Assembly (NCBI GenBank): GCA_965203555.1
Contig: CBDBCY010000004.1
Span: 1,057,554-1,121,553, forward strand
Origin: Acidimicrobiia bacterium
Lineage (GTDB): Bacteria > Actinomycetota > Acidimicrobiia > Spongiisociales > ZC4RG35
Length of the DNA stretch: 64,000 nt
Reading direction: 5' to 3'
Part shown: piece by piece, positions 1,511 through 19,946 of the stretch
Numbering within the stretch: the stretch's first letter is position 1
Layout: every line of letters begins with the position of its first letter
Made by a program: the position numbers and the translations under genes
Notes under the pieces: model-generated
What the model saw: only the letters and a program-made list of their open reading frames with translations
The model's database searches: none
What the model was told of the DNA's origin: nothing

Positions 1511-2388
1511 CTAACCCTCGCCCAGGGCATCCAGGTATTCCCGGCGCCAAGCTTCGGTGGCCTCGCAGCGGTTGAAGGTGTAGACGTGCAAACCGTCGAT
1601 GGCCAGCAGGGGGTCGGTGAGGCTTTCTCCGAGGTCTTCCAGCAATTCCCCGGGATCGTATCCCCCGGGTCCCAGGAGCTTGGTCACCACCTTGGCGTTC
1701 TTGGAGAGAAACCTCATCGAATCACCCACCCCGATCCGGGCCGAGATCTGCAATAGCTTCATCCGGCCTCCCACCCCGGGCACGCCCAGCAGCGCGGGCA
1801 GCCGGATCCGGCGCTGTCGGGCGTCGGAAAGAAAAGAACGAATGGCTTCGGCGTCAAAGCACATCTGGGTGGCCAGATGGTCTGCATAGGGCTGTTTGTC
1901 AGACAGGGCCTGATCGAGCTTGGAGTCGGAAATCACCGGATGACCCTCCGGATAGGCGGGGATTCCCACCTCTTCGAAGGGGTGGCCGATTTCATCCATG
2001 GCCCGGAGCAGGGACAGGCCGTCGAAGAATTCACCCGGATGGAGATGGTCCCCACCCACCACGAATGCCCGGCGGATACCCAACCGCGCAGCCCGGTCCA
2101 GGGTTTCGGCCAGGTGAGCCCGGTCACGGTGCAGCCGAGCAGACAGATGGGGGGTGACGTCGAATCCGGAATCAGCCAGTTCGGCGGCCAGCTCCATGGT
2201 TGCCTCCATCCCCTTGTTGGGCGAAGCCGTGACGGTGATCACCGATCCCTCGGGCAGGTACCGGGCCTGGGCCACCGCGTTCTTCAGGGGGATGATCTCG
2301 AACCGGACCCGGCGGAGGACCGCGGCGATCGCCGAACGGAGGGACCCGTTCAGACCATCCAGCCGCTCGGCGTAATCGGAGGAGGCCA
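1511..2388 (-). CDS. metF: 5,10-methylenetetrahydrofolate reductase MetF
   Basis: C-terminal 292 aa of the track ORF 1511..3424 (MASSDYAERLDGL…FVVGGDHLHPGEFFDGLSLL…TFNRCEATEAWRREYLDALGEG) is MTHFR-like. Its ATG (2386-2388) directly abuts the upstream gene's stop (TAATG coupling). The upstream 345 aa of the track ORF is antisense read-through. Confidence 0.85.
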
Positions 2389-3855
2389 TTATGCCTCGAA
2401 GTCCGGGTAGGTCTGTTTCTTCCGGGCGACGTATTCCTGCAGAGCCTCGTCGACCGCCTCGTCGATCGGCGGCGGTTGATACTCGGCCAGTGACTTCTTC
2501 CACAGGGAGTTGGCCCGCTCCACCGACCGCAGCGACCCTTCCTCCGACCATTGCTCGTAGCTGTTGTTGTCGGCGGTGAACGACCGGTAGAAAGCCGTTT
2601 CGAAATTGGCCAGCGTGTGGGCTGTTCCCAGGTGATGTTGGCCCGGTCCGGTCTCGATCACCGCCTCCAGGGCCTGTCCGTTCTCGGAGAGATCCACCCC
2701 CGACAGCAGCGCCTCGGCCATGCCGCACTGGTCGGAGTCGAGGACGAACTTCTCGTACCCCATCGTCAACCCACCTTCCAGCCATCCCGCCGAATGCAGG
2801 ACGAAGTTGATTCCGGCCAACAGGGTGGGCTGAAAAGTGGCGGCCGACTCGTAGGCGGCCTGGGCGTCGGGAACCTTGGAAGCGGTCAGATTCCCGCCGG
2901 ACCGGAAGGGAATCCCCAACCTCCGACCCAACTGGGCCAGCACGAACAGCGTCAGCGAAGGCTCGGGAGTTCCGAAGGTGGGAGCTCCCGATTGCATGGA
3001 AAGCGAGGAGGCGAACGATCCGAAAATCACCGGCGCTCCCGGCCTGACCAACTGGGTGTAGGACAGGGCCACCAGCGCCTCCGCCAGGGTCTGGGCCGCC
3101 ACTCCCGCCACCGTGACCGGCGCCATCGCCCCGGCCAGGATGAAGGGGGTGATTATTGCCGCCTGGTTCCGCCTGGCGTATTCGCGGGCCGAACCCAGCA
3201 TGGCCTTGTCCCAGGTGAGAGGGGAGTTGGCATTGCACAGCCCCATGATCACCGTGTTCTCTTCCAGGAAGTCCTCCCCGAACACCAGGGCGGCCATCTC
3301 CACCGAATCGGCTGCCCGGTGGGGAGCGGTGACCGAGCCCATCAACGGCTTGTCGGACCACCGAAAGTGGGAGTAGACCATGTCCAGGTGACGTTTGGGG
3401 ATGGGCACGTCCACCGGCTCGCACAATGTCCCCCCGGAGTGATGCAGATAAGGAGTCATGTAGACCAGCTTCACGAAATTCCGGAAGTCCTCGATGGTGG
3501 CATAACGACGCCCTCCGTCGAGATCCCTCACGAAGGGAGAGCCGTAAGCGGGCGCCAGCACCATGTGGTCACCGCCGATCACCACCGACTTCTCGGGGTT
3601 GCGAGCCACCTGGGTGAACATGGACGGGGCGTTGTCGGTCACTATTCGGCGGCACATTCCCCGGGGGAAACGCACCCGCTGTCCCTCGACGTCGGCCCCG
3701 GCCTCACGGAAGGTCCGGACGGCCGGCTCATCGGTTATGTCCACGCCCACCCGCTCCAGAATGGTCTCGGCGTTGTGCTCGATTATCTCCAATCCTTCGG
3801 TGCTGAGCACCTCGTAGGGAGCGAGTTTGCTGGTGAGGAAGGGGGATCTGTTCAT
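2389..3855 (-). CDS. MttB-superfamily (non-pyrrolysine) quaternary-amine:corrinoid methyltransferase (glycine-betaine MtgB-like)
   Basis: …MNRSPFLTSKLAPYEVLSTEGLEIIEHNAETILERVGVDI…ITPFILAGAMAPVTVAGVAAQ…SGAPTFGTPEP…GINFVLHSAGWLEGGLTMGYEKFVLDSDQCGM… is the trimethylamine-methyltransferase (MttB) fold without an in-frame amber codon. Start chosen at ATG 3853-3855 (MNRSPF); an alternative ATG at 3921 (MSRRRR) is possible. Confidence 0.85.
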   Translation of the reverse strand: MNRSPFLTSKLAPYEVLSTEGLEIIEHNAETILERVGVDITDEPAVRTFREAGADVEGQRVRFPRGMCRRIVTDNAPSMFTQVARNPEKSVVIGGDHMVLAPAYGSPFVRDLDGGRRYATIEDFRNFVKLVYMTPYLHHSGGTLCEPVDVPIPKRHLDMVYSHFRWSDKPLMGSVTAPHRAADSVEMAALVFGEDFLEENTVIMGLCNANSPLTWDKAMLGSAREYARRNQAAIITPFILAGAMAPVTVAGVAAQTLAEALVALSYTQLVRPGAPVIFGSFASSLSMQSGAPTFGTPEPSLTLFVLAQLGRRLGIPFRSGGNLTASKVPDAQAAYESAATFQPTLLAGINFVLHSAGWLEGGLTMGYEKFVLDSDQCGMAEALLSGVDLSENGQALEAVIETGPGQHHLGTAHTLANFETAFYRSFTADNNSYEQWSEEGSLRSVERANSLWKKSLAEYQPPPIDEAVDEALQEYVARKKQTYPDFEA

Positions 3856-3913
3856 CTCCTGGGCGGCCGCACGGGCAGCCGCCCGGGCCCGCCGCCCTCC
3901 TGATCTTCTTCTC

Positions 3914-5911
3914 CTACTCATCACGGCCTCTCTTTGCTCTGCGGGAAGTCCGACGCCGGGTTCGGCGGGAAGACCTCCGTTTTGGATCGTCCCGGCCCTT
4001 GCTCGCACCGGGAAAGGACATGGACGCCACGAAGTGCTCCTGGAAACGGGACTCTATGGCAGTCTCGATTTTCTCAACTCTATTGATGACCTGTTCAATC
4101 TCGCGTCGACATTCTCCGCTCAACAGACACATCAACGCCCCCGTCCCCGCCGCATTGCCCGCCGAAGACGCCCGGTCGGCTTCGATCCGGGGAATAAGTC
4201 CCAGGGCCATGGAGTGGGAAGTGCTCAGATGGGACCCGAAGGCGCCGGCCAGACGGATTCGGTCCACACGATCGGACCCCAGATGATCCATCAACAACCT
4301 GGCCCCGGCCAGCAGCGCCGCCTTGGCCAGTTGCACCGCCCGAACATCATTTTGCGTAATTCGCACGACCGTTCCCTTGTCCCACAGGATATAGGAGTAG
4401 GTACGCCCGTCCTCTACCACCCGTGAGGAACGTTCACCGGCGGCGCCGTCGATTCTCCCGTTCGCCATTATCACCCCCGCCGCCGCCAATTCGGAGAGGA
4501 CCTCGATGATTCCCGATCCGCAGATGCCGGTAACGCCGATCTTTCCTTCCAACTCCGAGAACCCCGGCTCGTCGGACCAGGGGTCCATCCCGATCACCTT
4601 GATCCGGGGCTCCAGGGTGTGGGGATCGATGCGCACCCGTTCTATGGCTCCCGGCGCCGCTCTCTGTCCCGAAGAAATCTGTGCACCCTCCAATGCCGGA
4701 CCGGTGGGACTGGAGGCGGCCAGCAGCCGATCCTCGTTTCCCAGCACTATCTCGGCGTTGGTGCCGATGTCGCACAACAACATGATCTCTTCGGCGCCAT
4801 AGGGGCGTTCCGACAGGATCATCCCGGCCGCATCGGCGCCCACATGCCCGGCTATGCAGGGAAGAAGATAGATTCGGGTCGCCTCGTTCAAATCGATTCC
4901 CACTCTCGAAGCTGCAATCTCGACCGGGCCATCGGTGGCCAGGGTGAAGGGAGCCTGTCCCAGCGGACGCACGTCCAACCCCAGGAACAGGTGGTGCATG
5001 ATGGGATTGCCCACCACCACCATCTCCAGCACCGACTCCCGCTCAGCCCCGGCCTGCTCCAACAGGTCCGAACACAACTCCGAAACCGCCGAACGCACCA
5101 GGGAGGTCAGCTTCTGCGCTCCATCCTGGTTCAGAGCCACATATGAGACCCTGCTCATCAGGTCTTCCCCCAACCTGACCTGGGGATTCATCAAGCCATG
5201 GGAAGCCAGAACCTCTCCGGTGGTCAGATCGGCCAGGTGACCGGCGATGGTGGTCGAGCCCACATCCACCGCCACCCCCAGCACGTGCTCCTTGAATCCG
5301 GGCCATACCGACACCACTTCTTTTCGGTCCCGCACCGCGGCCGTCACTTTTCCGTCGCCGACCCGGAGTGCTTCCTGCAGCATTCCCAGAACTTCGGCCC
5401 CCACCGCCACGCCGGAAAGGACCCACTGCTCTTCCAGGGCCGCCAGCAGCCGCTGGGCGTCGCCCGGCGCATGTTCCAGGGTCGGGGCCTCCGTCACCAC
5501 GTAGTGGAGGGTGGTCACCGGGTCCAGCCGGAGCTTTCCCACGTCGACTTCCTTTCTGACCACCTGCCGATGAGTCTGGCTTTCGGGCGGCACATCCACC
5601 AGGACATCTTCCAGCACCCCCGCCATGCACCCCAGCCTGCGGTCGTCGGCCAACCCCCGCCGCTTGCGATAGGAAGACTCCGTTTCAGACCACTCCGTCA
5701 ACGCCTCCGGCCCCACCGAGATTCCGTGCTTGGCGAACTCTCCGAACACCGGCGTCATCTGGCAACGTCCGCAGATGCCTCTGCCGCCGCACAGGGAAGC
5801 AAGGTCGGCGCCCACCATTCGGGCCGCCTCCAGCACCGTCGTCCCCCGGGGAACCCGACCCCTCCTCCCCGAAGGTGTGAAGATTATCCGAGGATCAGCC
5901 GGCTCGGCCAT
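3914..5911 (-). CDS. Corrinoid reductive activase (RamA-like): N-terminal 2Fe-2S ferredoxin plus ASKHA/DUF4445 ATPase domain
   Basis: N-terminus PRIIFTPSGRRGRVPRGTTVLEAA…CGGRGICGRCQ is a plant-type 2Fe-2S ferredoxin. The remainder (…VAVDVGSTTIAGHLADL…LLCDIGTNAEIVLGN…ICGSGIIEV…) is an ASKHA-fold RACo C-terminal-like domain. Start taken at MAEPADP (5909-5911); the track start at 6022 would overlap the upstream gene by 127 nt. Confidence 0.8.
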   Translation of the reverse strand: MAEPADPRIIFTPSGRRGRVPRGTTVLEAARMVGADLASLCGGRGICGRCQMTPVFGEFAKHGISVGPEALTEWSETESSYRKRRGLADDRRLGCMAGVLEDVLVDVPPESQTHRQVVRKEVDVGKLRLDPVTTLHYVVTEAPTLEHAPGDAQRLLAALEEQWVLSGVAVGAEVLGMLQEALRVGDGKVTAAVRDRKEVVSVWPGFKEHVLGVAVDVGSTTIAGHLADLTTGEVLASHGLMNPQVRLGEDLMSRVSYVALNQDGAQKLTSLVRSAVSELCSDLLEQAGAERESVLEMVVVGNPIMHHLFLGLDVRPLGQAPFTLATDGPVEIAASRVGIDLNEATRIYLLPCIAGHVGADAAGMILSERPYGAEEIMLLCDIGTNAEIVLGNEDRLLAASSPTGPALEGAQISSGQRAAPGAIERVRIDPHTLEPRIKVIGMDPWSDEPGFSELEGKIGVTGICGSGIIEVLSELAAAGVIMANGRIDGAAGERSSRVVEDGRTYSYILWDKGTVVRITQNDVRAVQLAKAALLAGARLLMDHLGSDRVDRIRLAGAFGSHLSTSHSMALGLIPRIEADRASSAGNAAGTGALMCLLSGECRREIEQVINRVEKIETAIESRFQEHFVASMSFPGASKGRDDPKRRSSRRTRRRTSRRAKRGRDE

Positions 5912-6821
5912 CGGCGCCTCGTCCGGTACGCCGCCGACGACCACCTCCCCGCCGGACCCCCCTGCTGCCCGGAGGAGGGGAGGCGCGGTGAGCCCTGATC
6001 CAGCGAGAGCACTCCGGATCATTGGCCATCATCACATCCGCCGCCATCACCGCCGAGCGGACTTCCTGGTGAAGCGGATTGGTTATCGCCGAGGTCAGAC
6101 CGGCGCTGATCGCCATGGTGAGAAAAGCCGAGTTGATGCCCTGCCGGTTGGGAAGGCCGAAGCTGACGTTGGAGGCCCCGCAGGTGGAGTTGACGCCCAA
6201 CTCGTCTCTCAATCGACCCAGGATGCGAAAAACCTGCCGGCCGGCTTGCGCCAATGCACCGATCGGCATCACCAGCGGATCGACCACCACATCGGAAGCC
6301 GGGATGCCGTAGTCGGAGGCGCGGGAAACAATTCTGCGGGCCACCTCGAACCGGACGTCCGGGTCCTCGGAGATGCCCGTTTCGTCGTTGGAAATGGCCA
6401 CCACCGCCGCTCCGTGCTTTGCTACCAGGGGCAACACTCTCTCCATCACTTCATCCTCGCCCGTCACCGAATTGACCAGAGCCTTCCCCTGATACACCCC
6501 CAGCCCGGACTCCAATGCCTCGACGATGGAGGAATCGATAGAGATCGGGACATCGGTGAGCGACTGGACCAGCTTGATGGCCTCGGCCAGGATGGCGGGT
6601 TCATCCGCCAGGGGAATCCCGGCGTTGACATCCAGCATGTGTGCGCCTGCGCCCACCTGGGCCAATGCGTCGGCCTCCACCCGGCTGAAGTCGCCGCTCT
6701 TCATCTCCTGCGCCAACAGCTTGCGGCCGGTGGGGTTGATCCGCTCCCCGATGATCGTGAAGGGCCGGTTCGGCCCTATCACCCACTCCCGGGTGGCGGA
6801 GGAGACGACGGTCTCGGTCAT
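5895..6821 (-). CDS. Methyl-H4folate:corrinoid methyltransferase (pterin-binding, MtrH/AcsE/MtgA-like)
   Basis: MTETVVSSATREWVIGPNRPFTIIGERINPTGRK…GAHMLDVNAG…VPISIDSS…ALVNSVTGE…NSTCGASNVSFGLPNRQGINSAFL is a pterin-binding (DHPS-like) domain. A strong GGAGGAGGAG RBS lies 5' of its ATG. The R-rich C-terminal tail may be overlap read-through. Confidence 0.8.
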   Translation of the reverse strand: MTETVVSSATREWVIGPNRPFTIIGERINPTGRKLLAQEMKSGDFSRVEADALAQVGAGAHMLDVNAGIPLADEPAILAEAIKLVQSLTDVPISIDSSIVEALESGLGVYQGKALVNSVTGEDEVMERVLPLVAKHGAAVVAISNDETGISEDPDVRFEVARRIVSRASDYGIPASDVVVDPLVMPIGALAQAGRQVFRILGRLRDELGVNSTCGASNVSFGLPNRQGINSAFLTMAISAGLTSAITNPLHQEVRSAVMAADVMMANDPECSRWIRAHRASPPPGSRGVRRGGGRRRRTGRGADGRAG

Positions 6822-6836
6822 CTCCTCCTCCCGTGG

Positions 6837-7523
6837 CTAGGCATTGGCGCGTTGCTTTTCGACCAGGGTCTTGGCGGTCTCGGCCGCCACGGCTGCATCT
6901 CGGCAGTAGGCGTCCGCCCCCACCGCCTCGCCGAATTCCTCGTTGAGGGGCGCCCCGCCCACCATCACGATGATTTCCTCCCTGATGCCCTCTTCCTTGA
7001 GAGCGTCGATGACCACCTTCATGTACGGCATGGTGGTGGTCAGAAGCGCCGACATGCCCAGAATGTCGGGGCCGTGCTCCTCCAGCGCCTCCAGGAATTC
7101 CTGGGCGTCGGTGTTGATCCCCAGGTCGAACACCTCGAATCCCGCCCCCTCCAGCATCATGCCCACCAGGTTCTTGCCGATGTCGTGAATGTCTCCCTTG
7201 ACGGTGCCGATCACCACCTTGCCGATCGACTCGACACCCGACGCCGAAAGTATGGGCCGCAGTATCTCCATCCCGGCCTTCATGGCCTTGGCGGCCAGTA
7301 GCACTTCGGGGACGAAGAGGATTCCGTCGCGGAAATCTATCCCCACGATCCTCATGCCCTCCACCAGTGCGTCGTTCAGTACTCTTTGGGCGTCCCAGGA
7401 CCGGGCCAGTAGAATTTCGGTTCCCTCGGCTATCTCATCGGCTAAGCCGTCGTAAAGATCGTCATGCATCTGGTAGACGAGCTCCTCGTCATCAAGAGAA
7501 GCAAGGTCAAAATCTTCGGTCAT
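6837..7523 (-). CDS. Corrinoid (B12-binding) methyl-carrier protein (MtgC/MtbC-like)
   Basis: …GTVKGDIHDIGKNLVGMMLEGAGFEVFDLGINT… carries the DxHxxG cobalamin-binding motif and a Rossmann-like B12-binding domain, with an N-terminal helical cap. AGGTGA RBS 5 nt upstream of the ATG at 7523. Confidence 0.85.
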   Translation of the reverse strand: MTEDFDLASLDDEELVYQMHDDLYDGLADEIAEGTEILLARSWDAQRVLNDALVEGMRIVGIDFRDGILFVPEVLLAAKAMKAGMEILRPILSASGVESIGKVVIGTVKGDIHDIGKNLVGMMLEGAGFEVFDLGINTDAQEFLEALEEHGPDILGMSALLTTTMPYMKVVIDALKEEGIREEIIVMVGGAPLNEEFGEAVGADAYCRDAAVAAETAKTLVEKQRANA

Positions 7524-7621
7524 GATTTCACCTGTTGGAATGAGAAGGCTGGGGCTGATGGGGTTAGGGAACCGAACGGCAAAGAACTCTGACGAAAAAC
7601 CTCACCGTTGCGTCCGGTAGA

Positions 7622-7638
7622 GTTTACGCATTGTAAAC
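7622..7638. promoter_or_regulatory. Palindrome GTTTACgcattGTAAAC in the divergent mtgC / DMGDH intergenic region (candidate operator)
   Basis: Perfect 6-bp inverted arms with a 5-nt spacer. Sits in the 180-bp divergent promoter region between 7523(-) and 7704(+). Confidence 0.3.
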
Positions 7639-7703
7639 GATCCGTGCAACCACACCGACCGCCACAAGAACAATAACCCGTCCTCAGCATAGGGAGTAAA
7701 GAT

Positions 7704-10205: not shown

Positions 10206-10206
10206 G

Positions 10207-12034: not shown

Positions 12035-12051
12035 GTTAACAGTCTGTTAAC
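12035..12051. promoter_or_regulatory. Perfect 17-bp palindrome GTTAACAGtCTGTTAAC upstream of proV (candidate operator)
   Basis: 8-bp perfect inverted arms with a 1-nt spacer, in an AT-richer stretch ~130 bp upstream of the proV GTG start. Confidence 0.3.
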
Positions 12052-13407: not shown

Positions 13408-15524
13408 AGTATTTAGGACCGATCCTCGCCCAGGCCGAAGGGGCGGAGGAGCCCCTGCGATTCTGGGACAACGCGGTGCTCGACTCGTGGGAGATCCCCT
13501 TCGGTTCCTGGATTGACGAGATGGTGGCTTGGGTGGTCGCCAACCTCGAGACCCTGCTGGACGTCATCAAATGGCCCTTCGCGTTCCTGTTCCGCAACTT
13601 CGTCATCAGTCCCGAATACCATCCCTGGTGGGAGTTGACGGACATGTCCTGGGTCCTGGTCTGCGGCATAGTGCTGGTGGTCGGGACACTGGTCCGCAAC
13701 CTGAAGGTGGGAGTGGGCCTGGCCTTGATGCTGGCCCTCTGCGGGCTGCTGGGCAACGAGTTCTGGGAGGAGACCGTCCTCACCATCGGCCTGGTGGTGG
13801 TCTCGGTGGTGATCTGCGCCGTGATCGGCATTCCCCTGGGGGTACTCTGCGGCCGCGTGGACGGAGTGTGGAACGCGGTGCGGCCGGTCCTCGACGCCAT
13901 GCAGGTGGTGCACTCCTTCGTCTACATCATTCCGTTCATCTTCTTCTTCGGGCTGGGACCGGAACCGGCCACCATGGTGACCATGGTGTTCGCCATACCC
14001 CCCTTGATACGGCTCACCAACCTGGGAATCCGCCAGGTCCCCGGCGATGTGGTGGAGGCGAGCCGCGCCTACGGCGCCACCGAGTGGCGGGTGTTGATCG
14101 ACGTGCAACTCCCGCTGGCCCGCCCCGCCATCATGACCGGGCTCAACCAGACCCTGCTGCTTTCCATATCGATGATCGGCATCGCCGCCATCATGGGCGC
14201 CAGCGGGCTGGGGCTTCTGGTGTTCCGGGCGGTCGTCAACGTCGACACTCCCCTCTCGGCCTCGGCAGGGCTGGCCCTCTTCATAGTGGCGGTGGTGCTG
14301 GACCGCATCTCCCAGACCCAGTCCGACGAGGGCGCCAATCTGATAACCCGTATCTACCGGGCCTGGGCTCATCGGCGCGACCCCGAACTGCTGCTGGATG
14401 ACAGCCAGGTCTCCTCGGTGCAGGCCGAGACTCCCGCTCCGGAAGGCACTCCGGCGCTGGTGGCGCCCAGGGAGCGCACCGGCGTGCTGATCGCTCTGGC
14501 CGGTTCGACGCTGGCGGCGATTTCGGTGTTCCTGCCCTGGGGAGAGAACTCGGGCCTTATCTCCGGATATAGCCGCGCCGCCGACTTGGATCTGGCCGGT
14601 TCGAGTTTCAACGGTCTGTCGGCCGCCGGGGGCAGCTACTACGGCTTGGCCGTGCTGGGAATGAGTCTGCTGGTGATTGGTTCGGCGGTGACCACCCTCA
14701 CCCGTCCCGGCAGGATAGCCCGCTGGTTCGGCGCCGACGGCGCCCTCATGTTCGCGGCGGGAAGCGTGATGGCCGCCCTCACCTATCTGTGGATAGACCC
14801 GTCGGCAGAGGCCGCCGCCTATGGGGACGGCATCGGAGTCTGGCTGGCGGTGGCAGGTGGGATCATCAGCATCCTGGGAGCGGTGATGTGGATCGGAGGC
14901 GCGCCTTACAGCCCGCTTCGCCCGCTGAAAGCCACCGTCTCTGTCAGCCGCATCGTCATTTCGGTAGCCGTAGTCGGCATGCTGGCGGTGGCGGGCCTGT
15001 CCTCCTGGTCGGTGGACTCGAGAGCGGAAGCGGTGATCACCCCCGAATTGCAGGCCGAGATCGATCGACTGGAGAAAGAAGCCCGAGAAGACCCGGCACA
15101 GGCAGGACTCAACGCTATCAGTATCGCCACCCTGGTCGCCGAGGCGCAGCGAAAGAACCCTGTGATCGTCGACGGGTACACCGGTCCTCGCCTGGGACAA
15201 CTGGCTCTGTGGCTGGGAGTGGTCGGAATCCTGGTCGGCCTTCCGGCCGCCGGCGCATTCGGGAGCAATGAACGGAGGCGCTGGGTGTGGAGCGTGGGAG
15301 TCGCGGCTCTCGGAGTGGGCATCATGGTGGCGTCGGGGGGGTGGATCGCCTCCCTGGTTCGTGCTTCCGATGCCAATTTCGTCAGCGGTCCCGGTGCATT
15401 TCTGTGCTTGCTGGCCGGATTCCTCCTGTTCATCTCCCCGCGCAGCGTTCTGAGAGAGTTCCGGCGCACCAAGGTATTCGCCGGAGACAAGGGACTGATG
15501 GATAAGGCGGAGAGTCCAGCATAG
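13404..15524 (+). CDS. proW: Glycine betaine ABC permease (ProW/OpuAB) with ~400-aa C-terminal multi-TM extension
   Basis: The first ~300 aa are a canonical ProW-type permease (…YIIPFIFFFGLGPEPATMVTMVFAIPPLIRLTNLGIRQVP…). A further ~400 aa of hydrophobic helices plus a coiled segment (ITPELQAEIDRLEKEARED) follow in the same frame with the same codon bias. Confidence 0.85.
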   Translation: MKYLGPILAQAEGAEEPLRFWDNAVLDSWEIPFGSWIDEMVAWVVANLETLLDVIKWPFAFLFRNFVISPEYHPWWELTDMSWVLVCGIVLVVGTLVRNLKVGVGLALMLALCGLLGNEFWEETVLTIGLVVVSVVICAVIGIPLGVLCGRVDGVWNAVRPVLDAMQVVHSFVYIIPFIFFFGLGPEPATMVTMVFAIPPLIRLTNLGIRQVPGDVVEASRAYGATEWRVLIDVQLPLARPAIMTGLNQTLLLSISMIGIAAIMGASGLGLLVFRAVVNVDTPLSASAGLALFIVAVVLDRISQTQSDEGANLITRIYRAWAHRRDPELLLDDSQVSSVQAETPAPEGTPALVAPRERTGVLIALAGSTLAAISVFLPWGENSGLISGYSRAADLDLAGSSFNGLSAAGGSYYGLAVLGMSLLVIGSAVTTLTRPGRIARWFGADGALMFAAGSVMAALTYLWIDPSAEAAAYGDGIGVWLAVAGGIISILGAVMWIGGAPYSPLRPLKATVSVSRIVISVAVVGMLAVAGLSSWSVDSRAEAVITPELQAEIDRLEKEAREDPAQAGLNAISIATLVAEAQRKNPVIVDGYTGPRLGQLALWLGVVGILVGLPAAGAFGSNERRRWVWSVGVAALGVGIMVASGGWIASLVRASDANFVSGPGAFLCLLAGFLLFISPRSVLREFRRTKVFAGDKGLMDKAESPA

Positions 15525-15659
15525 GACGGGGTGAAGGCCGGACCTTGATCGACAGACGCAGACCCGACACACAAGCATATGAGAGGACATTTGAAACAAA
15601 CCAGGCATAGGAAAACAACCCAGGCATGGGATTGAAGAAAGATCCCAGAAGGAGAAAAC

Positions 15660-17861
15660 ATGAAAAGGAATACCAAGATCAGATACCTGGTGGCGCTGCT
15701 TTCGGTGCTCGCCCTCCTGGCTACGGCCTGTGGAGACGATGAGGCCGATGCCCCCTCGGCAACCCCGACTACCGCCCCGGCCGCGGAGACTCCCGATGAC
15801 GCCATGGACGATGACGCCATGGACGATGACGCCATGGACGACGACACCATGGACGATGACACCATGGACGATGACACCATGGACATGGGCGACGACATGG
15901 CGCTGCCGGGTGAGGGTGTGTCGGTGACGATGGCCCGGGCCAACTGGTCGACCGGTTATATGCAGGCTGCTATCTATGCGTCGTTGCTGGCCGAGTTGGG
16001 CTATGATGTCTCCGACCCGGCCGATCTGGAGTTGGCGCCGTCCAACGCCTATGTGGCGATGGCCAACGGCGAGTTCGACTTCTGGGTCAACTCGTGGTTC
16101 CCCAACCACAACCAGTTCCTGGCCGGTGAGATGCCCGACGGATCGCTGGTCTCCGAGCACGTGACCACCCTGGGCAAAGAGATGGCCCTGGCCGGCGTGC
16201 AGGGGCTGATCACCAACAAGGCGTTCGCGGCAGAGAACGGGGTGACCACCCTCGACGCCCTGCTGTCCGATCCCGATCAGTTCGCTGCCTACGAGGCGGC
16301 GGACGCCTCTCCCGGTGACGGCATCCTTCAGATCATGGGATGCCCCGAGGGATGGGGTTGTCGAGTCAACATCGACGCCTGGATCGAGAACGCCGGCTGG
16401 ACCAACATCGAGCAGTTCGACATCGGAGGCTACGACGCCATGATCGCCGATGCCATCGCCCGTGACGCAGCCGGAGAGCCCTACATGGTCTACACGTGGG
16501 CGCCCAGTCACTACGTCAAGGACCTGCGACCCGGCGACAACTCGATCTGGCTGTCCATCTCCGACGAGTCGATCTCTCCCACCCAGATCGAAGGTCCCAA
16601 GTCGCTCGGCGGCTCGTGCACCACCGATAACTGCAACCTGGGCTGGGACGCAGCCGACATTTTGGTGACCGGCAACAACGACTTCCTGGCCGCCAACCCG
16701 GCCGCTGCCCGACTGTTCGAACTGGTGACCATCAACCCAGTCGACGTGACCCTCCAAAACGTGGCCTACAGCCTCGGAGAGGACACCGAAGACGACATCA
16801 AACGCCACGCCGCCGAATGGATCGCCGCCAACCGCGACACCGTCGACGCCTGGCTCCACGCCGCCAAGCAGCCGATCAACCTGACCCCGGGTGAGGGTGT
16901 GTCGGTGACGATGGCCCGGGCCAACTGGTCGACCGGTTATATGCAGGCTGCTATCTATGCGTCGTTGCTGGCCGAGTTGGGCTATGATGTCTCCGACCCG
17001 GCCGATCTGGAGTTGGCGCCGTCCAACGCCTATGTGGCGATGGCCAACGGCGAGTTCGACTTCTGGGTCAACTCGTGGTTCCCCAACCACAACCAGTTCC
17101 TGGCCGGTGAGATGCCCGACGGATCGCTGGTCTCCGAGCACGTGACCACCCTGGGCAAAGAGATGGCCCTGGCCGGCGTGCAGGGGCTGATCACCAACAA
17201 GGCGTTCGCGGCAGAGAACGGGGTGACCACCCTCGACGCCCTGCTGTCCGATCCCGATCAGTTCGCTGCCTACGAGGCGGCGGACGCCTCTCCCGGTGAC
17301 GGCATCCTTCAGATCATGGGATGCCCCGAGGGATGGGGTTGTCGAGTCAACATCGACGCCTGGATCGAGAACGCCGGCTGGACCAACATCGAGCAGTTCG
17401 ACATCGGAGGCTACGACGCCATGATCGCCGATGCCATCGCCCGTGACGCAGCCGGAGAGCCCTACATGGTCTACACGTGGGCGCCCAGTCACTACGTCAA
17501 GGACCTGCGACCCGGCGACAACTCGATCTGGCTGTCCATCTCCGACGAGTCGATCTCTCCCACCCAGATCGAAGGTCCCAAGTCGCTCGGCGGCTCGTGC
17601 ACCACCGATAACTGCAACCTGGGCTGGGACGCAGCCGACATTTTGGTGACCGGCAACAACGACTTCCTGGCCGCCAACCCGGCCGCTGCCCGACTGTTCG
17701 AACTGGTGACCATCAACCCAGTCGACGTGACCCTCCAAAACGTGGCCTACAGCCTCGGAGAGGACACCGAAGACGACATCAAACGCCACGCCGCCGAATG
17801 GATCGCCGCCAACCGCGACACCGTCGACGCCTGGCTCCAGACCGCCCGCCTGGTCGGCTAA
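15660..17861 (+). CDS. proX: Glycine-betaine-binding lipoprotein with two tandem, identical ProX/OpuAC substrate-binding domains
   Basis: Signal peptide plus lipobox (LLATACG), then an acidic DDAMD/DDTMD repeat linker. The SBD sequence (…WFPNHNQFLAGEMPDG…GCPEGWGC…) occurs twice with 100% identity. Confidence 0.85.
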   Translation: MKRNTKIRYLVALLSVLALLATACGDDEADAPSATPTTAPAAETPDDAMDDDAMDDDAMDDDTMDDDTMDDDTMDMGDDMALPGEGVSVTMARANWSTGYMQAAIYASLLAELGYDVSDPADLELAPSNAYVAMANGEFDFWVNSWFPNHNQFLAGEMPDGSLVSEHVTTLGKEMALAGVQGLITNKAFAAENGVTTLDALLSDPDQFAAYEAADASPGDGILQIMGCPEGWGCRVNIDAWIENAGWTNIEQFDIGGYDAMIADAIARDAAGEPYMVYTWAPSHYVKDLRPGDNSIWLSISDESISPTQIEGPKSLGGSCTTDNCNLGWDAADILVTGNNDFLAANPAAARLFELVTINPVDVTLQNVAYSLGEDTEDDIKRHAAEWIAANRDTVDAWLHAAKQPINLTPGEGVSVTMARANWSTGYMQAAIYASLLAELGYDVSDPADLELAPSNAYVAMANGEFDFWVNSWFPNHNQFLAGEMPDGSLVSEHVTTLGKEMALAGVQGLITNKAFAAENGVTTLDALLSDPDQFAAYEAADASPGDGILQIMGCPEGWGCRVNIDAWIENAGWTNIEQFDIGGYDAMIADAIARDAAGEPYMVYTWAPSHYVKDLRPGDNSIWLSISDESISPTQIEGPKSLGGSCTTDNCNLGWDAADILVTGNNDFLAANPAAARLFELVTINPVDVTLQNVAYSLGEDTEDDIKRHAAEWIAANRDTVDAWLQTARLVG
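15795..15887 (+). repeat. 18-bp tandem repeat (gatgacRccatggac x~5) encoding a (D-D-A/T-M-D-D) acidic Met-rich linker
   Basis: Read directly: gatgacgccatggac x3 then gatgacaccatggac x3, in frame within proX after the lipobox. Confidence 0.7.
15907..17840 (+). repeat. Perfect tandem duplication, period 981 bp (2 x ~953 bp identical)
   Basis: Track sub-ORFs recur exactly 981 bp apart (15976/16957, 16049/17030, 16450/17431, 16511/17492). The sequence from ccgggtgagggtgtgtcggtgacg… to …gacgcctggctcca is identical in both copies. The copies diverge only in the linker (16860-16887) and the gene 3' end. Confidence 0.8.
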
Positions 17862-17918
17862 TACCAGACCGTGAGAGATGAGGGTGCCATACGGCGCCTT
17901 CATCCTCTCTCTTTTCTA

Positions 17919-17962
17919 AAACGGGGCCTCGTCCTACCGGACGGGGCCCCGTTCTTCTGTTA
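17919..17962 (+). terminator. Putative intrinsic terminator after proX
   Basis: aaaACGGGGCCtcgtcctaccggacGGCCCCGTTcttctgtt: a GC-rich stem followed by a T-rich tract, ~60 nt after the proX stop. Confidence 0.4.
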
Positions 17963-17969
17963 ATGTCCA

Positions 17970-19064
17970 GTGTCAGTCATGTCCAATAGCTTCGGCACAA
18001 GGCTGACTGTCGGGTTGGCTGCGTTGGTACTGGTAACGGCGTCCTGTGCATCCGAAAGCCCCGACACCGACGCCCGAGAGATGCTGCCGGGTGAAGGCGT
18101 GTCGGTAACCATGGCAAGGGGGAACTGGTCGACCGGTTATATGCAGGCCGCTATCTACGCAGCCTTGCTGACTGAACTGGGCTATGAGGTAAGCCGTCCG
18201 GCTGACCTGGAATTGCCTCCCTCCAACGCCTACGTGGCCATGGCCAACGGCGAATTCGACTTCTGGGTCAACTCCTGGTTCCCCAACCACAACCAGTTCC
18301 TCGCCGGAGAGATGCCCGACGGCACCTTGGTGGGTGACCACCTGACGGTGCTCGGTTGGGAGATGCGCACCGGTGGCCTGCAGGGCGTCCTTACCAATAA
18401 GGACCTTGTGACAGAGCACGGAATAGAGACGCTCGACCAGATCGTGAACGATCCCGCCCTGTTCACGATCTTCGAGGAGGGCGATACCCATCCTGGCGAC
18501 GGCACACTCCAGTTGCTGGGATGCCCCGAGGGATGGGGATGTCACATAACCATCGACGCCTGGATCGAAAACGCGGGTTGGGAGAAGGTCGAGCAACTGG
18601 AGGTTGCTTCCTACGACGTCCTGATCGCCGAGGCCATCTCCCGGGACTCCGCCGGCATTCCGTACATCGTCTATTCCTGGGCCCCCAGTTCGTATGTGGC
18701 CGACCTGCGCCCGGGCGACAATGCCATCTGGCTGTCCACATCCCACGAGTCGATCTCCCCCAGCCAGACGGAAGGCCCGTCCACCCTGGAGGCGGGAGAG
18801 TGCTCCACCGACTCCTGCAACCTTGGGTGGGACGCAGCCGACATCCGCGTCACGGCCCACAACGATTTCCTGGCCGCCAATCCCGCCGCCGCTGCCCTCT
18901 TCGAGTTGGTGGTGATCAGCCCGATCGATGTTGCTTTGCAGAACGTTGCCTACGGCCTGGGCGAAAACACCGAGGACGACATCCACCGCCACGCTGCCGA
19001 ATGGATCGAAGGCAACCGCGACACAGTTAACCAATGGATCGCCGCTGCAAGGAGCGCAGGCTGA
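17970..19064 (+). CDS. Glycine-betaine-binding lipoprotein, single-domain paralog of proX (~75% aa identity)
   Basis: Lipobox LVTASCAS, then MLPGEGVSVTMARGNWSTGYMQAAIYAALLTELGYEV…WFPNHNQFLAGEMPDGT…GCPEGWGCHI…, colinear with each repeat unit of proX. Confidence 0.85.
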   Translation: MSVMSNSFGTRLTVGLAALVLVTASCASESPDTDAREMLPGEGVSVTMARGNWSTGYMQAAIYAALLTELGYEVSRPADLELPPSNAYVAMANGEFDFWVNSWFPNHNQFLAGEMPDGTLVGDHLTVLGWEMRTGGLQGVLTNKDLVTEHGIETLDQIVNDPALFTIFEEGDTHPGDGTLQLLGCPEGWGCHITIDAWIENAGWEKVEQLEVASYDVLIAEAISRDSAGIPYIVYSWAPSSYVADLRPGDNAIWLSTSHESISPSQTEGPSTLEAGECSTDSCNLGWDAADIRVTAHNDFLAANPAAAALFELVVISPIDVALQNVAYGLGENTEDDIHRHAAEWIEGNRDTVNQWIAAARSAG

Positions 19065-19163
19065 TCCACCGGACATACAGGCCACAGAGAGGAAGGATTC
19101 TGACCGGTCCGTCCCCCGGGCACAGGGAGGAAAGATCCCACCGCTTCCTTACACTGAACAGCC

Positions 19164-19946
19164 ATGGGTGAAGGTCTGCGGGTAGTCAAAGAGCCTCCCC
19201 TGCTGGAGGTGGTCATCGACCGGCCCAAAGCCAATGCCATAGATGCCGCGACCAGCCGGTTGATGGGAGATGTATTTGGAGCCTTCCGGGATGATCCCGC
19301 CTACCGGGTCGCCATCCTGACCGGCGCCGGGGATCGGTTCTTCTCGGCGGGCTGGGACCTGAAAGCCGCCTCGGAGGGGGAATCCTACGAAGCGGATTGG
19401 GGCTTGGGAGGTTTCGGAGGATTCCCCGAGTTGGAGGGCCTCAACAAGCCGGTGATCTGCGCGGTCAACGGCATCGCCGCCGGAGGAGGGTTCGAGATCG
19501 TGCTGGCTGCCGACCTGGTGGTGGCGGCGGACACCGCCCAGTTCCTGCTTCCCGAGGCATTCATGGGGTTTCCCCCCGACATCGGCGCCGTTCGCCTCCC
19601 CAGGCAGATCCCCCCACTGCTCGCCAAAGAGATCCTCTTGACGGGAAGACGAGTGGACATGGAGCAGGCCCTGCGGTGGGGAATGGTGAACCAGGTGGTT
19701 TCTCCCGGCCAACTCATGGATGCCGCCCGCCGCTTGGCCGAGCGGATCTGCGAAGCCGCTCCCCTGGCGGTGGAGGCCATTTTGGAGATGATCCGGGACA
19801 CCTCGCAAATGGGGGTGGCCGATGCTTTGACCCACATCCGGTCAGGCGAAGTGGCCGCATACCGCAGAGCCCTCGACTCCTCTGATGCCCTCGAAGGGCC
19901 GAGAGCCTTTGCCGAAAGACGTTCGCCCCGTTGGACCGGCGCCTAG
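19164..19946 (+). CDS. caiD: Carnitinyl-CoA dehydratase / crotonobetainyl-CoA hydratase (crotonase family)
   Basis: Near full-length colinearity with E. coli CaiD blocks recalled from memory: IDRPKANAIDAATS, FRDDP.YRVAILTGAGDRFFSAGWDLKAASEGE, KPVICAVNG.A.GGGFE..LAAD.VVAAD, and C-terminal ALEGPRAFAERRSPRW. Confidence 0.75.
   Translation: MGEGLRVVKEPPLLEVVIDRPKANAIDAATSRLMGDVFGAFRDDPAYRVAILTGAGDRFFSAGWDLKAASEGESYEADWGLGGFGGFPELEGLNKPVICAVNGIAAGGGFEIVLAADLVVAADTAQFLLPEAFMGFPPDIGAVRLPRQIPPLLAKEILLTGRRVDMEQALRWGMVNQVVSPGQLMDAARRLAERICEAAPLAVEAILEMIRDTSQMGVADALTHIRSGEVAAYRRALDSSDALEGPRAFAERRSPRWTGA

What the first reader, a model, noticed from the sequence alone, without database searches (positions are those of the whole stretch)
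1511..19946. Hybrid betaine catabolic supercluster: corrinoid demethylase plus DMG-dehydrogenase-family/EtfAB plus ProVWX importer plus caiD
The mtg operon is divergent, across a shared 180-bp promoter region, from a dimethylglycine/sarcosine-dehydrogenase-family gene that is translationally coupled to etfB-etfA. A ProV/ProW/ProX-type importer follows, with two extra ProX domains and a paralog, and then caiD.

This combines an 'anaerobic-type' corrinoid first demethylation step with an 'aerobic-type' flavoprotein second step plus an ETF electron sink. That would give betaine -> DMG -> sarcosine without BHMT. The presence of caiD suggests the true substrate may be carnitine- or crotonobetaine-related rather than glycine betaine.
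Basis: inference. Interest (0 to 1): 0.55.

Follow-up and report, generated by a model that had tools for sequence, protein, structure and literature searches.

The report
Cobalamin-dependent glycine betaine demethylation cluster
This is a real gene cluster in an uncultured marine-type actinobacterium (class Acidimicrobiia) that most likely imports glycine betaine and removes two of its three methyl groups. It is a new example, in a new phylum, of a pathway shown experimentally in marine Proteobacteria in 2025, so it is not a new kind of system.

Summary

**Minus-strand operon.** Five coupled genes: corrinoid protein, methyl-THF:corrinoid methyltransferase, RACo-type reductive activase, non-pyrrolysine MttB-family methyltransferase (2389-3921) and a divergent MTHFR (1511-2389). 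The 637-aa ORF at 1511-3424 is a high-GC artefact.

**Plus strand.** 180 bp away, a four-domain dimethylglycine dehydrogenase/oxidase homologue is coupled to etfB-etfA. Then come proV, proW, a two-domain ProX lipoprotein, a ProX paralogue and a CaiD-like enoyl-CoA hydratase.

**Conservation.** The eight-gene core recurs in Acidimicrobiia and Chloroflexota. Of 36 fully flanked orthologous loci, 32 keep MttB within 10 kb, in at least six gene orders.

**Reading.** Glycine betaine goes to dimethylglycine, then sarcosine. Both methyl groups end as methylene-THF and electrons go to ETF. This matches the aerobic MtgBCD/MetF2 pathway shown in Ruegeria pomeroyi (PMC12478193).

**The caiD idea is not supported.**
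- caiD is peripheral and scores below the CaiD cut-off.
- ProX keeps the E. coli betaine-binding Trp box.
- Close relatives carry carnitine dehydrogenase and a BKACE enzyme on the other flank, which suggests carnitine feeds in upstream of betaine.

**Side observation.** The two tandem ProX domains are 98-100% identical within each of six genomes but only 61-88% identical between genomes.

Verdict: new member of a known kind; modest interest.

The parts
1511..2389 (-). Divergent MTHFR (MetF2-like, 292 aa). Proposed to oxidise methyl-THF to methylene-THF.
   Evidence: PF02219 at 48.8 bits. Best solved relative is Sphingobium S6MTHFR 7XG9 at 108.6 bits, against at most 28 bits for ordinary MTHFRs. 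The ATG overlaps the MttB stop by 1 nt. Conserved next to MttB in 40 loci.
2389..3921 (-). Non-pyrrolysine MttB-superfamily methyltransferase (510 aa). Proposed glycine betaine:corrinoid methyltransferase (MtgB-like).
   Evidence: PF06253 at 733 bits over the full length. Homologues are 510-514 aa. 684.6 bits to S. meliloti 4YYC and 406 bits to D. hafniense MtgB 2QNE/9YCE, but 105 bits to true TMA MttB. No in-frame stop.
3914..5913 (-). RACo/RamA-type ATP-dependent reductive activase of corrinoid proteins, with an N-terminal [2Fe-2S] domain. The likely start is the ATG at 5911-5913; the ORF extends to 6022.
   Evidence: RACo_linker, RACo_middle and RACo_C_ter at 69, 162 and 275 bits. Cys pattern C-X5-C-X2-C-X44-C, and candidate starts. 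The relative's gene is 663 aa.
5895..6821 (-). Methyl-THF:corrinoid methyltransferase (the MtgA of anaerobes, MtgD of Mausz et al.).
   Evidence: NF005719 at 344.6 bits, above the cut-off of 259; Pterin_bind at 99 bits.
6837..7523 (-). Corrinoid (B12-binding) protein, MtgC-like.
   Evidence: B12-binding and B12-binding_2 domains. Best NCBIfam match is MtgC_2 at 214 bits, below the cut-off of 370. DxHxxG motif DIHDIG at residue 111.
7524..7703 (.). 180-bp divergent control region with the dyad GTTTACGCATTGTAAAC at 7622-7638.
   Evidence: Sequence. The dyad pattern occurs only here and at 12035 in the 64 kb. The same position carries close variants in relatives.
7704..10205 (+). Dimethylglycine dehydrogenase/oxidase-family flavoenzyme (833 aa).
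   Evidence: DAO, FAO_M, GCV_T and GCV_T_C domains. Full-length match to A. globiformis dimethylglycine oxidase 1PJ5 at 492 bits. The residues aligned with its His48, His225 and Tyr259 are conserved.
10207..10968 (+). Electron transfer flavoprotein beta subunit.
   Evidence: PF01012. The start lies 1 nt after the DMGDH stop. Follows the DMGDH orthologue in 76 of 85 loci held.
10965..11942 (+). Electron transfer flavoprotein alpha subunit.
   Evidence: PF01012 and PF00766. ATGA overlap with etfB.
12035..12051 (.). Second copy of the dyad (GTTAACAGTCTGTTAAC), upstream of proV.
   Evidence: Variants at the same place in L081, L002, L005, L006, L008 and L049.
12184..13407 (+). ProV-type ABC ATPase.
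   Evidence: TIGR01186 at 375 bits, above the cut-off of 326.6.
13404..15524 (+). ProW-type permease (residues about 29-308) fused to a lineage-specific hydrophobic C-terminal extension of about 390 aa.
   Evidence: BPD_transp_1; choline/ProW permease models at 232 and 213 bits, below their cut-offs. The extension has no significant Pfam match (only a sub-threshold DUF3487 hit) and only 7 homologues in 5.8 billion proteins. Sequence.
15660..17861 (+). Lipoprotein with an acidic (DDDA/TM)x6 linker and two tandem ProX domains.
   Evidence: NF008334 at 428 bits, above the cut-off of 215, in two stretches. The copies are identical over 953 nt, 15906-16858 against 16887-17839. The Trp box of E. coli ProX is conserved.
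17877..17953 (+). Two terminator-like hairpins after the tandem proX.
   Evidence: 12-pair and 15-pair stems followed by T-rich tails.
17970..19064 (+). Single-domain ProX paralogue (lipoprotein).
   Evidence: NF008334 at 217.7 bits, above the cut-off of 215. 74% nucleotide identity (about 71% protein) to the tandem copies; orthologous to the third copy in L002 and L003.
19164..19946 (+). CaiD-like enoyl-CoA hydratase. Peripheral and probably not part of the core pathway.
   Evidence: ECH_1 at 196 bits. NF002936 at 347.5 bits, below the cut-off of 500. Present only in the closest relatives and, unlinked, in L041.

Best explanation
This is a glycine betaine uptake and demethylation locus of an aerobic-type Acidimicrobiia bacterium.

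Proposed pathway:
1. ProVW, with lipoprotein-anchored ProX domains, imports glycine betaine.
2. The MttB-family enzyme transfers one N-methyl group of betaine to the Co(I) corrinoid protein, giving dimethylglycine.
3. The pterin-binding methyltransferase passes the methyl group to tetrahydrofolate.
4. The RACo-type activase re-reduces corrinoid that has been inadvertently oxidised, using ATP.
5. The divergent MTHFR oxidises methyl-THF to methylene-THF.
6. The DMGDH-family flavoenzyme oxidatively demethylates dimethylglycine to sarcosine. This gives a second methylene-THF, and its electrons go to the co-translated EtfAB and then to the respiratory chain.

Shown here: gene identities, operon structure, conserved linkage, and conserved ligand and cofactor residues.

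Inferred: the substrates, the direction of the MTHFR reaction, co-regulation through the shared dyad, and the fate of sarcosine, which must be handled elsewhere in the genome.
For: - Family assignments.
- Tight coupling of the five minus-strand genes (15-nt gap, then overlaps of 17, 8 and 1 nt) and of DMGDH-etfB-etfA.
- Conserved linkage: 32 of 36 fully flanked DMGDH orthologue loci carry MttB within 10 kb, in at least six gene orders, across Acidimicrobiia and Chloroflexota.
- The reverse view, starting from MttB homologues, shows the same operon of corrinoid protein, pterin methyltransferase, RACo, MttB and MTHFR. It sits next to DMGDH-ETF in one case and next to GMC (choline-dehydrogenase-like) oxidoreductases in two others. 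All of these are betaine-related.
- MttB scores about four times higher against the two glycine betaine methyltransferase structures than against TMA MttB. It keeps the residues aligned with Y97, R312 and H348 of D. hafniense MtgB (residues from PMC13080624).
- The DMGDH homologue aligns end to end with dimethylglycine oxidase. The histidine aligned with the flavin-linked His48, and H225/Y259, are conserved.
- ProX keeps W65, W140, W188, H69 and the Cys pair of E. coli ProX.
- Betaine-type proV/proW genes accompany the core in 23 loci.
- The same biochemistry was shown genetically and proteomically in R. pomeroyi, including a strongly induced MetF2 next to the pterin methyltransferase (PMC12478193).
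- The closest solved relative of the MTHFR is an enzyme shown to oxidise methyl-THF (PMC11868366).
Against: - No experiment exists for this organism.
- The fourth betaine-contacting residue of MtgB (F356) aligns with Gly384. A Trp four residues upstream, shared with the S. meliloti structure, might substitute, but that is a guess.
- The corrinoid protein and ProW score below NCBIfam's equivalog cut-offs.
- Three of the five checked residues said to define the methyl-THF-oxidising type 4 MTHFR are changed here: L48 to S, R78 to L, P268 to T.
- No sarcosine-demethylating enzyme, ETF:quinone oxidoreductase or regulator was found in the 64 kb.
- DUF1638, which accompanies the system in Ruegeria and in more distant relatives, is absent from the window.
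Confidence: 0.8

Rival explanations
1. The true substrate of the MttB enzyme and the transporter is carnitine, crotonobetaine or gamma-butyrobetaine (an MtcB/MtyB-like function), with caiD acting on the CoA ester.
For: - The hydratase's best family match is crotonobetainyl-CoA hydratase, more than 100 bits above the next family.
- Close relatives carry carnitine 3-dehydrogenase-thioesterase, a BKACE enzyme, an acyl-CoA dehydrogenase and a CoA ligase on the other flank.
- MtgB's aromatic pair is only half conserved.
Against: - The caiD match is below the family cut-off. No caiA, caiB, caiC or caiT is present in the window.
- caiD is separated from the transporter operon by two terminators. It is absent from the conserved core outside the closest clade.
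- Demethylating carnitine would not yield a substrate for a DMG-type dehydrogenase, yet that enzyme is the invariable neighbour.
- Carnitine dehydrogenase plus BKACE plus thioesterase is the established aerobic route from carnitine to glycine betaine (own knowledge; CdhABC is named in PMC12478193). That places carnitine upstream of betaine, not in place of it.
- ProX has the glycine-betaine/proline-betaine Trp box.
Confidence: 0.05
2. The substrate is proline betaine (stachydrine) or another small N-methylated betaine. MttB would act like MtpB, and the DMGDH-family enzyme would demethylate the N-methyl amino acid product.
For: - E. coli-type ProX binds both glycine betaine and proline betaine (own knowledge; the PDB entries 1R9L and 1R9Q share the matched chain).
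- F356 of MtgB is not conserved.
- Specificity within the MttB superfamily cannot be read from overall similarity.
Against: - The flavoenzyme's best solved match, over its full length and with catalytic residues conserved, is dimethylglycine oxidase.
- MttB scores 406 bits against two glycine betaine methyltransferase structures.
- Choline-dehydrogenase-like and carnitine-to-betaine genes lie next to the module in relatives. Both make glycine betaine.
Confidence: 0.07
3. The corrinoid module serves mainly as a split methionine synthase: methyl-THF to corrinoid to homocysteine through an MtgE/BHMT-like protein. MttB would then be only an accessory methyl input.
For: [quoted passage not shown]
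- A BHMT/MtgE-type gene (NF005718, 341 bits, above the cut-off of 338) lies near the cluster in the closest relative. One is adjacent in 11 other loci.
Against: - No homocysteine-binding gene is present anywhere in this 64-kb window.
- The module is operonic with MttB and an S6MTHFR-related MTHFR, and divergent from DMGDH-ETF. That is a catabolic layout.
- A dual role is compatible with the best explanation and does not replace it.
Confidence: 0.05

Closest known systems
[quoted passage not shown]
   Same: - An MttB-family (pfam06253) methyltransferase, a separate corrinoid protein, a pterin-binding methyltransferase, a RamA/RACo-type activase and a metF paralogue next to the pterin gene.
- Genes for later demethylation steps nearby.
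- An organism that is not a strict anaerobe.
   Different: - A different phylum, Actinomycetota (class Acidimicrobiia).
- All parts sit in one divergent locus, whereas they are scattered in Ruegeria.
- A dedicated EtfAB is coupled to the DMG enzyme.
- A ProVWX-type ABC importer takes the place of the BCCT OpuD.
- No DUF1638 and no MtgE in the window.
- Whether the corrinoid protein also serves methionine synthesis here is unknown.
MtgB/MtgC/MtgA of Desulfitobacterium hafniense, the anaerobic glycine betaine:THF methyl transfer system (2QNE, 9YCE; PMC13080624)
   Same: A three-component architecture. MttB here scores 406 bits against MtgB, and the residues aligned with Y97, R312 and H348 are conserved.
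   Different: - F356 is replaced by Gly.
- The closest structure is the uncharacterised S. meliloti homologue 4YYC (684.6 bits).
- The methyl group is oxidised through MTHFR and respiration, not used in acetogenic or sulfite-reducing metabolism.
- A DMG dehydrogenase removes the product.
Arthrobacter globiformis dimethylglycine oxidase (1PJ5) and mammalian dimethylglycine dehydrogenase (4PAA, 5L46)
   Same: The same four-domain architecture. The histidine aligned with His48 (the covalent flavin attachment site; own knowledge), the catalytic His/Tyr and the folate-binding GCV_T domain are all present.
   Different: Here the gene is translationally coupled to etfBA. That suggests a dehydrogenase that uses ETF, as the mammalian enzyme does, and not an oxidase.
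S6MTHFR, a 'type 4' methyl-THF-oxidising MTHFR of Sphingobium lignivorans SYK-6 (7XG9; PMC11868366)
   Same: It is the best solved relative, and it also lies next to a demethylase system that produces methyl-THF.
   Different: Three of the five checked motif residues said to block NADH binding differ here. The window has S-P for L48-P49, L for R78 and T-F for P268-F269.
E. coli ProU (ProVWX) glycine betaine/proline betaine ABC importer
   Same: ProV and ProX score above the NCBIfam cut-offs, and the ProX Trp box is conserved.
   Different: - ProX is a lipoprotein with two identical tandem binding domains, plus a separate paralogue.
- ProW carries a lineage-specific C-terminal membrane extension of about 390 aa.

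Membership tests
MtgB (glycine betaine:corrinoid methyltransferase, non-Pyl MttB superfamily) | Full-length PF06253 (MTTB) TIM-barrel domain | tested here: met
   733 bits, residues 35-534 of the long ORF against profile positions 1-499 of 500.
MtgB (glycine betaine:corrinoid methyltransferase, non-Pyl MttB superfamily) | No in-frame UAG/pyrrolysine codon | tested here: met
   Uninterrupted ORF at 2389-3921. The Rfam PYLIS_3 hit inside the gene is at threshold (38.8 against 38) and has no UAG.
MtgB (glycine betaine:corrinoid methyltransferase, non-Pyl MttB superfamily) | Betaine-contacting residues Y97, R312, H348 and F356 of D. hafniense MtgB (PMC13080624) | tested here: inconclusive
   By the phmmer alignment to 2QNE, Y126, R340 and H376 are conserved and F356 aligns with G384. 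W380 is nearby, as in S. meliloti 4YYC.
MtgB (glycine betaine:corrinoid methyltransferase, non-Pyl MttB superfamily) | [quoted passage not shown] | not testable with these tools
   Needs an enzyme assay.
Aerobic MtgBCD/MetF2 system (PMC12478193) | Separate corrinoid protein with a His-on B12 motif, plus a pterin-binding methyltransferase | tested here: met
   DIHDIG at residue 111. NF005719 at 344.6 bits, above the cut-off of 259.
Aerobic MtgBCD/MetF2 system (PMC12478193) | metF paralogue linked to the methyltransferase genes | tested here: met
   The MTHFR-like gene overlaps the MttB stop by 1 nt.
Aerobic MtgBCD/MetF2 system (PMC12478193) | DUF1638 reactivation partner and MtgE (homocysteine-binding module) | tested here: not met
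   Neither is found in the 64-kb window by tblastn. DUF1638 is present in more distant relatives and MtgE/BHMT in relatives. The rest of this genome could not be searched.
Dimethylglycine dehydrogenase/oxidase | DAO + FAO_M + GCV_T + GCV_T_C architecture with the flavin-linked His and the catalytic His/Tyr | tested here: met
   Alignment to 1PJ5 shows the residues aligned with H48, H225 and Y259 conserved. The roles of these residues come from my own knowledge of the DMGO literature.
Dimethylglycine dehydrogenase/oxidase | Activity on dimethylglycine, with ETF as electron acceptor | not testable with these tools
   Only the coupling to etfBA supports it. That coupling is conserved in 76 of 85 loci held.
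ProU-type betaine ABC importer | ProV and ProX above the curated cut-offs, and the ProX aromatic box | tested here: met
   ProV TIGR01186 at 375 bits against 326.6. ProX NF008334 at 428 and 217.7 bits against 215. W65, W140 and W188 conserved against 1R9L. ProW is below its cut-offs: 232 against 363 and 213 against 439.
CaiD (crotonobetainyl-CoA hydratase / carnitinyl-CoA dehydratase) | Score above the equivalog cut-off | tested here: not met
   NF002936 at 347.5 bits against a cut-off of 500.
CaiD (crotonobetainyl-CoA hydratase / carnitinyl-CoA dehydratase) | cai operon context (caiT, caiA, caiB, caiC, caiE) | tested here: not met
   The neighbours are a ProX paralogue, an HNH/DUF222 gene and an MFS transporter. 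A relative's acyl-CoA dehydrogenase and CoA ligase have no match in the window.
Type 4 (methyl-THF-oxidising) MTHFR | Motif residues L48-P49, R78 and P268-F269 of S6MTHFR | tested here: not met
   The alignment to 7XG9 gives S-P, L and T-F (motifs from PMC11868366). It is still the closest solved relative, at 108.6 bits.

The most novel reading that the evidence does not exclude
The conserved eight-gene module may be a self-contained cassette in which the dedicated EtfAB accepts electrons from two enzymes: the dimethylglycine dehydrogenase and the methyl-THF-oxidising MTHFR. The physiological electron acceptor of that MTHFR type is explicitly unknown (PMC11868366). If so, both methyl groups would reach methylene-THF with all electrons going to the quinone pool. 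The module's presence in two phyla at similar identity (DMGDH 68-70% in Chloroflexota, 68-75% in distant Acidimicrobiia) would then reflect horizontal spread of a complete unit.
Probability: 0.12. Interest if true: 0.55.

Novelty: new member of a known kind. Interest (0 to 1): 0.3.

Why it matters
- It extends the recently established cobalamin-dependent route of glycine betaine demethylation in non-anaerobes from Proteobacteria to Acidimicrobiia and Chloroflexota. Both groups are abundant and largely uncultured.
- It shows the route in its most compact form, with methyltransferase system, MTHFR, DMG dehydrogenase and ETF in one locus.
- That compact locus is a clean marker set for annotating betaine catabolism in metagenomes. 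In such data these MttB genes are still read as 'trimethylamine methyltransferase' and have been taken for methanogenesis genes (PMC9999580).
- It also adds to the cobalamin demand expected of these bacteria.
- It does not change the understanding of the pathway itself.

Tried and rejected
- **Long ORFs.** I first took the 637-aa ORF (1511-3424) and the 507-aa ORF (21356-22879) as genes. Third-position GC and homologues showed both are wrong frames or read-throughs.
- **Regulatory RNA.** An Rfam scan of the whole window found no cobalamin riboswitch or other regulatory RNA in the cluster. It gave only a threshold PYLIS_3 hit inside mttB, which I read as coding-sequence homology.
- **Promoters.** The sigma-70 consensus scan found nothing in the 180-bp divergent region.
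- **The dyad.** The strict dyad pattern matched in only 2 of 85 loci. Looser matching was needed to see it conserved in the close clade. More distant loci carry a different palindrome (GTnCCAC-N3-GTGGnAC), so the dyad is clade-specific. It may also simply be back-to-back -35 boxes: TTGACA reads on the minus strand in several relatives.
- **caiD beyond the closest clade.** I tested whether caiD is functionally tied to the module there. In L041 it lies 5 kb from etfA, behind genes for DUF3039, homogentisate dioxygenase, an IclR regulator and formate-THF ligase. I therefore rejected it as a core member.
- **The relatives' left-flank genes.** I searched the window for carnitine dehydrogenase, BKACE, acyl-CoA dehydrogenase, CoA ligase, BHMT/MtgE, IclR, and also DUF1638. 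None was found.
- **ProW extension.** A homology search for the C-terminal extension gave only 7 proteins from the same small clade, so I did not attempt a structure prediction.
- **Literature.** A search for Acidimicrobiia + sponge + betaine + dimethylglycine found nothing.

Full report
**What is in the sequence**

The window is high in GC (about 63%), so long spurious ORFs are common. I called genes by third-position GC and by homology.

On the minus strand, read 5' to 3', there are five genes:
- a corrinoid protein at 6837-7523, with B12-binding and B12-binding_2 domains and the DxHxxG motif DIHDIG;
- a pterin-binding methyl-THF:corrinoid methyltransferase at 5895-6821 (NF005719, 344.6 bits, above its cut-off of 259);
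- a RACo/RamA-type reductive activase with a four-Cys [2Fe-2S] domain (stop at 3914, likely start at 5911-5913);
- a non-pyrrolysine MttB-family methyltransferase at 2389-3921 (PF06253, 733 bits);
- a divergent MTHFR at 1511-2389.

These five genes are separated by a 15-nt gap and then overlaps of 17, 8 and 1 nt. The 637-aa ORF that spans 1511-3424 is a read-through artefact.

Across exactly 180 bp (7524-7703) lies an 833-aa protein with DAO, FAO_M, GCV_T and GCV_T_C domains. Its stop codon is 1 nt before the etfB start, and etfB overlaps etfA by ATGA.

The rest of the plus strand follows after gaps:
- proV (TIGR01186, 375 bits, above 326.6);
- a 706-aa ProW;
- a 733-aa lipoprotein with two ProX domains;
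- two strong terminator-like hairpins (17877-17953);
- a 364-aa ProX paralogue;
- a 260-aa enoyl-CoA hydratase.

An HNH/DUF222 gene on the opposite strand (19980-21278) follows. It is absent at this place in L006 and L009, where caiD is followed directly by the MFS transporter gene that in the window lies at 21531-22784.

**Whose genome**

The closest loci are all metagenome-assembled Acidimicrobiia (Actinomycetota). The DMGDH orthologues are 88-92% identical and MttB is up to 95% identical. Several isolate names look like sponge or coral holobiont bins. That is my reading of the names and is not verified.

**Is the association real**

I fetched the 80 closest DMGDH loci from one genome per species and mapped the window's proteins onto them.
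- Of the 36 loci with at least 8 kb on both sides, 32 have an MttB gene within 10 kb.
- 19 of those have exactly the window's arrangement.
- The others show at least five further orders, including fully co-linear operons: corrinoid protein, methyltransferase, RACo, MttB, DMGDH, etfB, etfA.
- The loci come from Acidimicrobiia and from Chloroflexota (Anaerolineae, Promineifilaceae, Ardenticatenaceae, Caldilineaceae).

Linkage that survives this much rearrangement indicates function.

Starting instead from MttB homologues of about 70% identity gives the same picture. The operon of corrinoid protein, (DUF1638, PF13769), pterin methyltransferase, RACo, MttB and MTHFR recurs with a divergent IclR regulator. 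It lies next to DMGDH-ETF in one case and next to GMC (choline-dehydrogenase-like) oxidoreductases in two others.

Accessory genes are more variable:

| Gene near the core | Loci (of 85 held) |
|---|---|
| Betaine-type proV / proW | 23 / 18 |
| IclR regulator | 33 |
| MFS transporter | 14 |
| BHMT/MtgE-type S-methyltransferase | 12 |
| caiD | 6 |

All six caiD loci are in the window's close clade except L041. In L041, caiD is 5 kb from etfA with unrelated genes between.

**What each part most likely does**

*MttB.* It scores 684.6 bits against the uncharacterised S. meliloti structure 4YYC. It scores 406 bits against the two D. hafniense glycine betaine methyltransferase entries (2QNE, 9YCE), but only 105 bits against true TMA MttB. 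Picking et al. 2026 (PMC13080624) showed that Y97 and F356 (cation-pi) and R312 and H348 (carboxylate) bind betaine. They also showed that the aromatic pair is not conserved in the carnitine, proline-betaine, butyrobetaine and phosphocholine enzymes. In the alignment, the window protein keeps Tyr, Arg and His. It has Gly at the F356 position, with a Trp four residues earlier, as does 4YYC. So three of four residues are met and one is open.

*The flavoenzyme.* It aligns end to end with Arthrobacter dimethylglycine oxidase (492 bits). The residues aligned with the flavin-linked His48 and with His225 and Tyr259 are conserved. Its coupling to etfBA points to a dehydrogenase.

*The MTHFR.* It is only weakly similar to ordinary MTHFRs (at most 28 bits). 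It scores 108.6 bits against S6MTHFR, which oxidises methyl-THF and cannot use NADH. Three of that type's five checked motif residues differ here, so I call it related, not a member.

*ProX.* Each domain aligns with E. coli ProX with W65, H69, C136/C142, W140 and W188 conserved.

Together these give a coherent pathway:
1. Betaine is imported.
2. It is demethylated on the corrinoid to dimethylglycine.
3. The methyl group goes to THF and is oxidised to methylene-THF.
4. Dimethylglycine is oxidised to sarcosine plus a second methylene-THF.
5. Electrons go to ETF.

**Comparison with what is known**

This is the pathway that Mausz et al. (PNAS 2025, PMC12478193) established in Ruegeria pomeroyi.
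- MtgB (pfam06253), MtgC, MtgD, RamA, DUF1638 and a strongly induced MetF2 were all more abundant on betaine.
- mtgC and mtgD knockouts abolished growth on betaine.
- The authors note that genes for later demethylation steps are often co-located with mtgBCD in Alpha-, Gamma- and Deltaproteobacteria.
- About 5% of oceanic mtgC reads were assigned to Actinomycetota.

They do not describe actinobacterial loci, ETF coupling or ProX-type importers. This window is a compact actinobacterial member of the system.

**The caiD question**

The hydratase is CaiD-like but below the family cut-off (347.5 against 500). It has no cai neighbours, sits behind terminators and is not part of the conserved core.

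In the window's closest relatives, the other flank (beyond MTHFR) carries:
- a Na/Ca exchanger and an IclR regulator;
- a BKACE enzyme;
- a carnitine 3-dehydrogenase-thioesterase fusion (534 bits, against a cut-off of 592);
- in L081, also an acyl-CoA dehydrogenase, a CoA ligase and a BHMT/MtgE-type gene (341 bits, above 338).

Carnitine dehydrogenase plus BKACE plus thioesterase is the known aerobic route from carnitine to glycine betaine. So carnitine is more likely a feeder of the pathway than the MttB substrate.

In this window that flank is missing. Synteny with L081 ends at 1517. A 312-nt, 95% identical duplicate of the mttB-3'/MTHFR-5' junction lies at 700-1011, which marks a rearrangement.

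**Regulation (inference)**

A 17-bp dyad, GTTWAC-N5-GTWAAC, occurs only twice in the 64 kb: in the divergent region (7622) and upstream of proV (12035). I derived the pattern from these two sites, so the chance estimate is circular. Close variants do sit at both places in the nearest relatives. None lies before the ProX paralogue or caiD. The dyad may be a shared operator or paired -35 boxes. The window has no regulator gene near the cluster.

**Side findings**

- The two ProX domains of the 733-aa lipoprotein are identical over 953 nt.
- In five other genomes the two copies are likewise 98-100% identical to each other. Between genomes they are 80-88% identical, and 61-63% for L006. The separate paralogue evolves as an ordinary orthologue. 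This pattern fits concerted evolution of an intragenic tandem duplication.
- The ProW C-terminal extension is hydrophobic, has no significant Pfam match (only a sub-threshold DUF3487 hit), and has only seven homologues in 5.8 billion proteins.

**Verdict**

- Observation: confirmed, with corrections.
- Interpretation: partly supported. The pathway reading is right and the carnitine reading is not.
- Novelty: new member of a known kind.
- Interest: 0.3.

Noticed in passing
window 15906-16858 and 16887-17839 (also L002, L003, L006, L007, L009): The two tandem ProX domains within one gene are 100% identical over 953 nt (period 981). In five other genomes the two copies are 98-100% identical to each other. 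Between genomes they are only 80-88% identical, and 61-63% for L006. The separate paralogue diverges normally. This looks like concerted evolution (gene conversion or unequal crossing-over) of a duplicated binding domain. Assembly artefact seems unlikely, because assemblies from several independent projects agree.
   Followed up: partly
window 14364-15524: ProW carries a hydrophobic C-terminal extension of about 390 aa, with roughly eight predicted membrane segments by eye. It has no significant Pfam match (only a sub-threshold DUF3487 hit) and only 7 homologues in 5.8 billion proteins. Most of these are also fused to a ProW permease. Its function is unknown.
   Followed up: partly
window 15794-15898: A 15-nt repeat after the lipoprotein signal of the tandem ProX encodes (D-D-D-A/T-M) six times. 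It forms a very acidic, Met-containing linker.
   Followed up: no
window 700-1011 versus 2115-2426: A 312-nt, 95% identical direct duplicate of the junction between the mttB 3' end and the MTHFR 5' end. It leaves a truncated MTHFR pseudogene (ORF 690-1037, minus strand). A DUF433-like ORF (1071-1409) lies between the copies. Synteny with the closest relative ends here, so the carnitine/IclR flank of the relatives has been displaced.
   Followed up: partly
window 2790-2889 (-): An Rfam PYLIS_3 (pyrrolysine insertion sequence of mttB) hit at 38.8 bits, against a gathering score of 38, inside the non-Pyl MttB gene. There is no in-frame UAG. It is most likely coding-sequence homology and not a functional element.
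   Followed up: partly
window 19980-21278 (-): A DUF222 + HNH endonuclease gene between caiD and the MFS transporter. It is absent at this place in L006 and L009, so it is probably a mobile insertion.
   Followed up: partly
window 21531-22784 (+): An MFS transporter whose homologues lie next to the mtg/DMGDH module in 14 loci, including distant ones and on either side of the module. It may be a second betaine- or product-related transporter.
   Followed up: no
window about 48000-62200: A low-GC (50-58%) stretch with SIR2-like and HerA/DUF87 genes, an SNF2-family helicase, a DUF1156 methyltransferase-like protein and a DDE transposase. It looks like an acquired phage-defence island and is unrelated to the finding.
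   Followed up: no
L010, L018-L023, L025, L027 and others (intergenic region between corrinoid protein and DMGDH): More distant loci carry a different conserved palindrome, GTnCCAC-N3-GTGGnAC, in the divergent region. It often lies close to the corrinoid-protein start, and many of these loci also have an adjacent IclR regulator gene. It is a candidate operator.
   Followed up: no
L041 8574-10307 and 12252-13502: In one distant locus, genes for formate-THF ligase and a creatinase/M24-family protein lie near the DMGDH-ETF genes. This hints at a wider neighbourhood for C1 and sarcosine metabolism.
   Followed up: no
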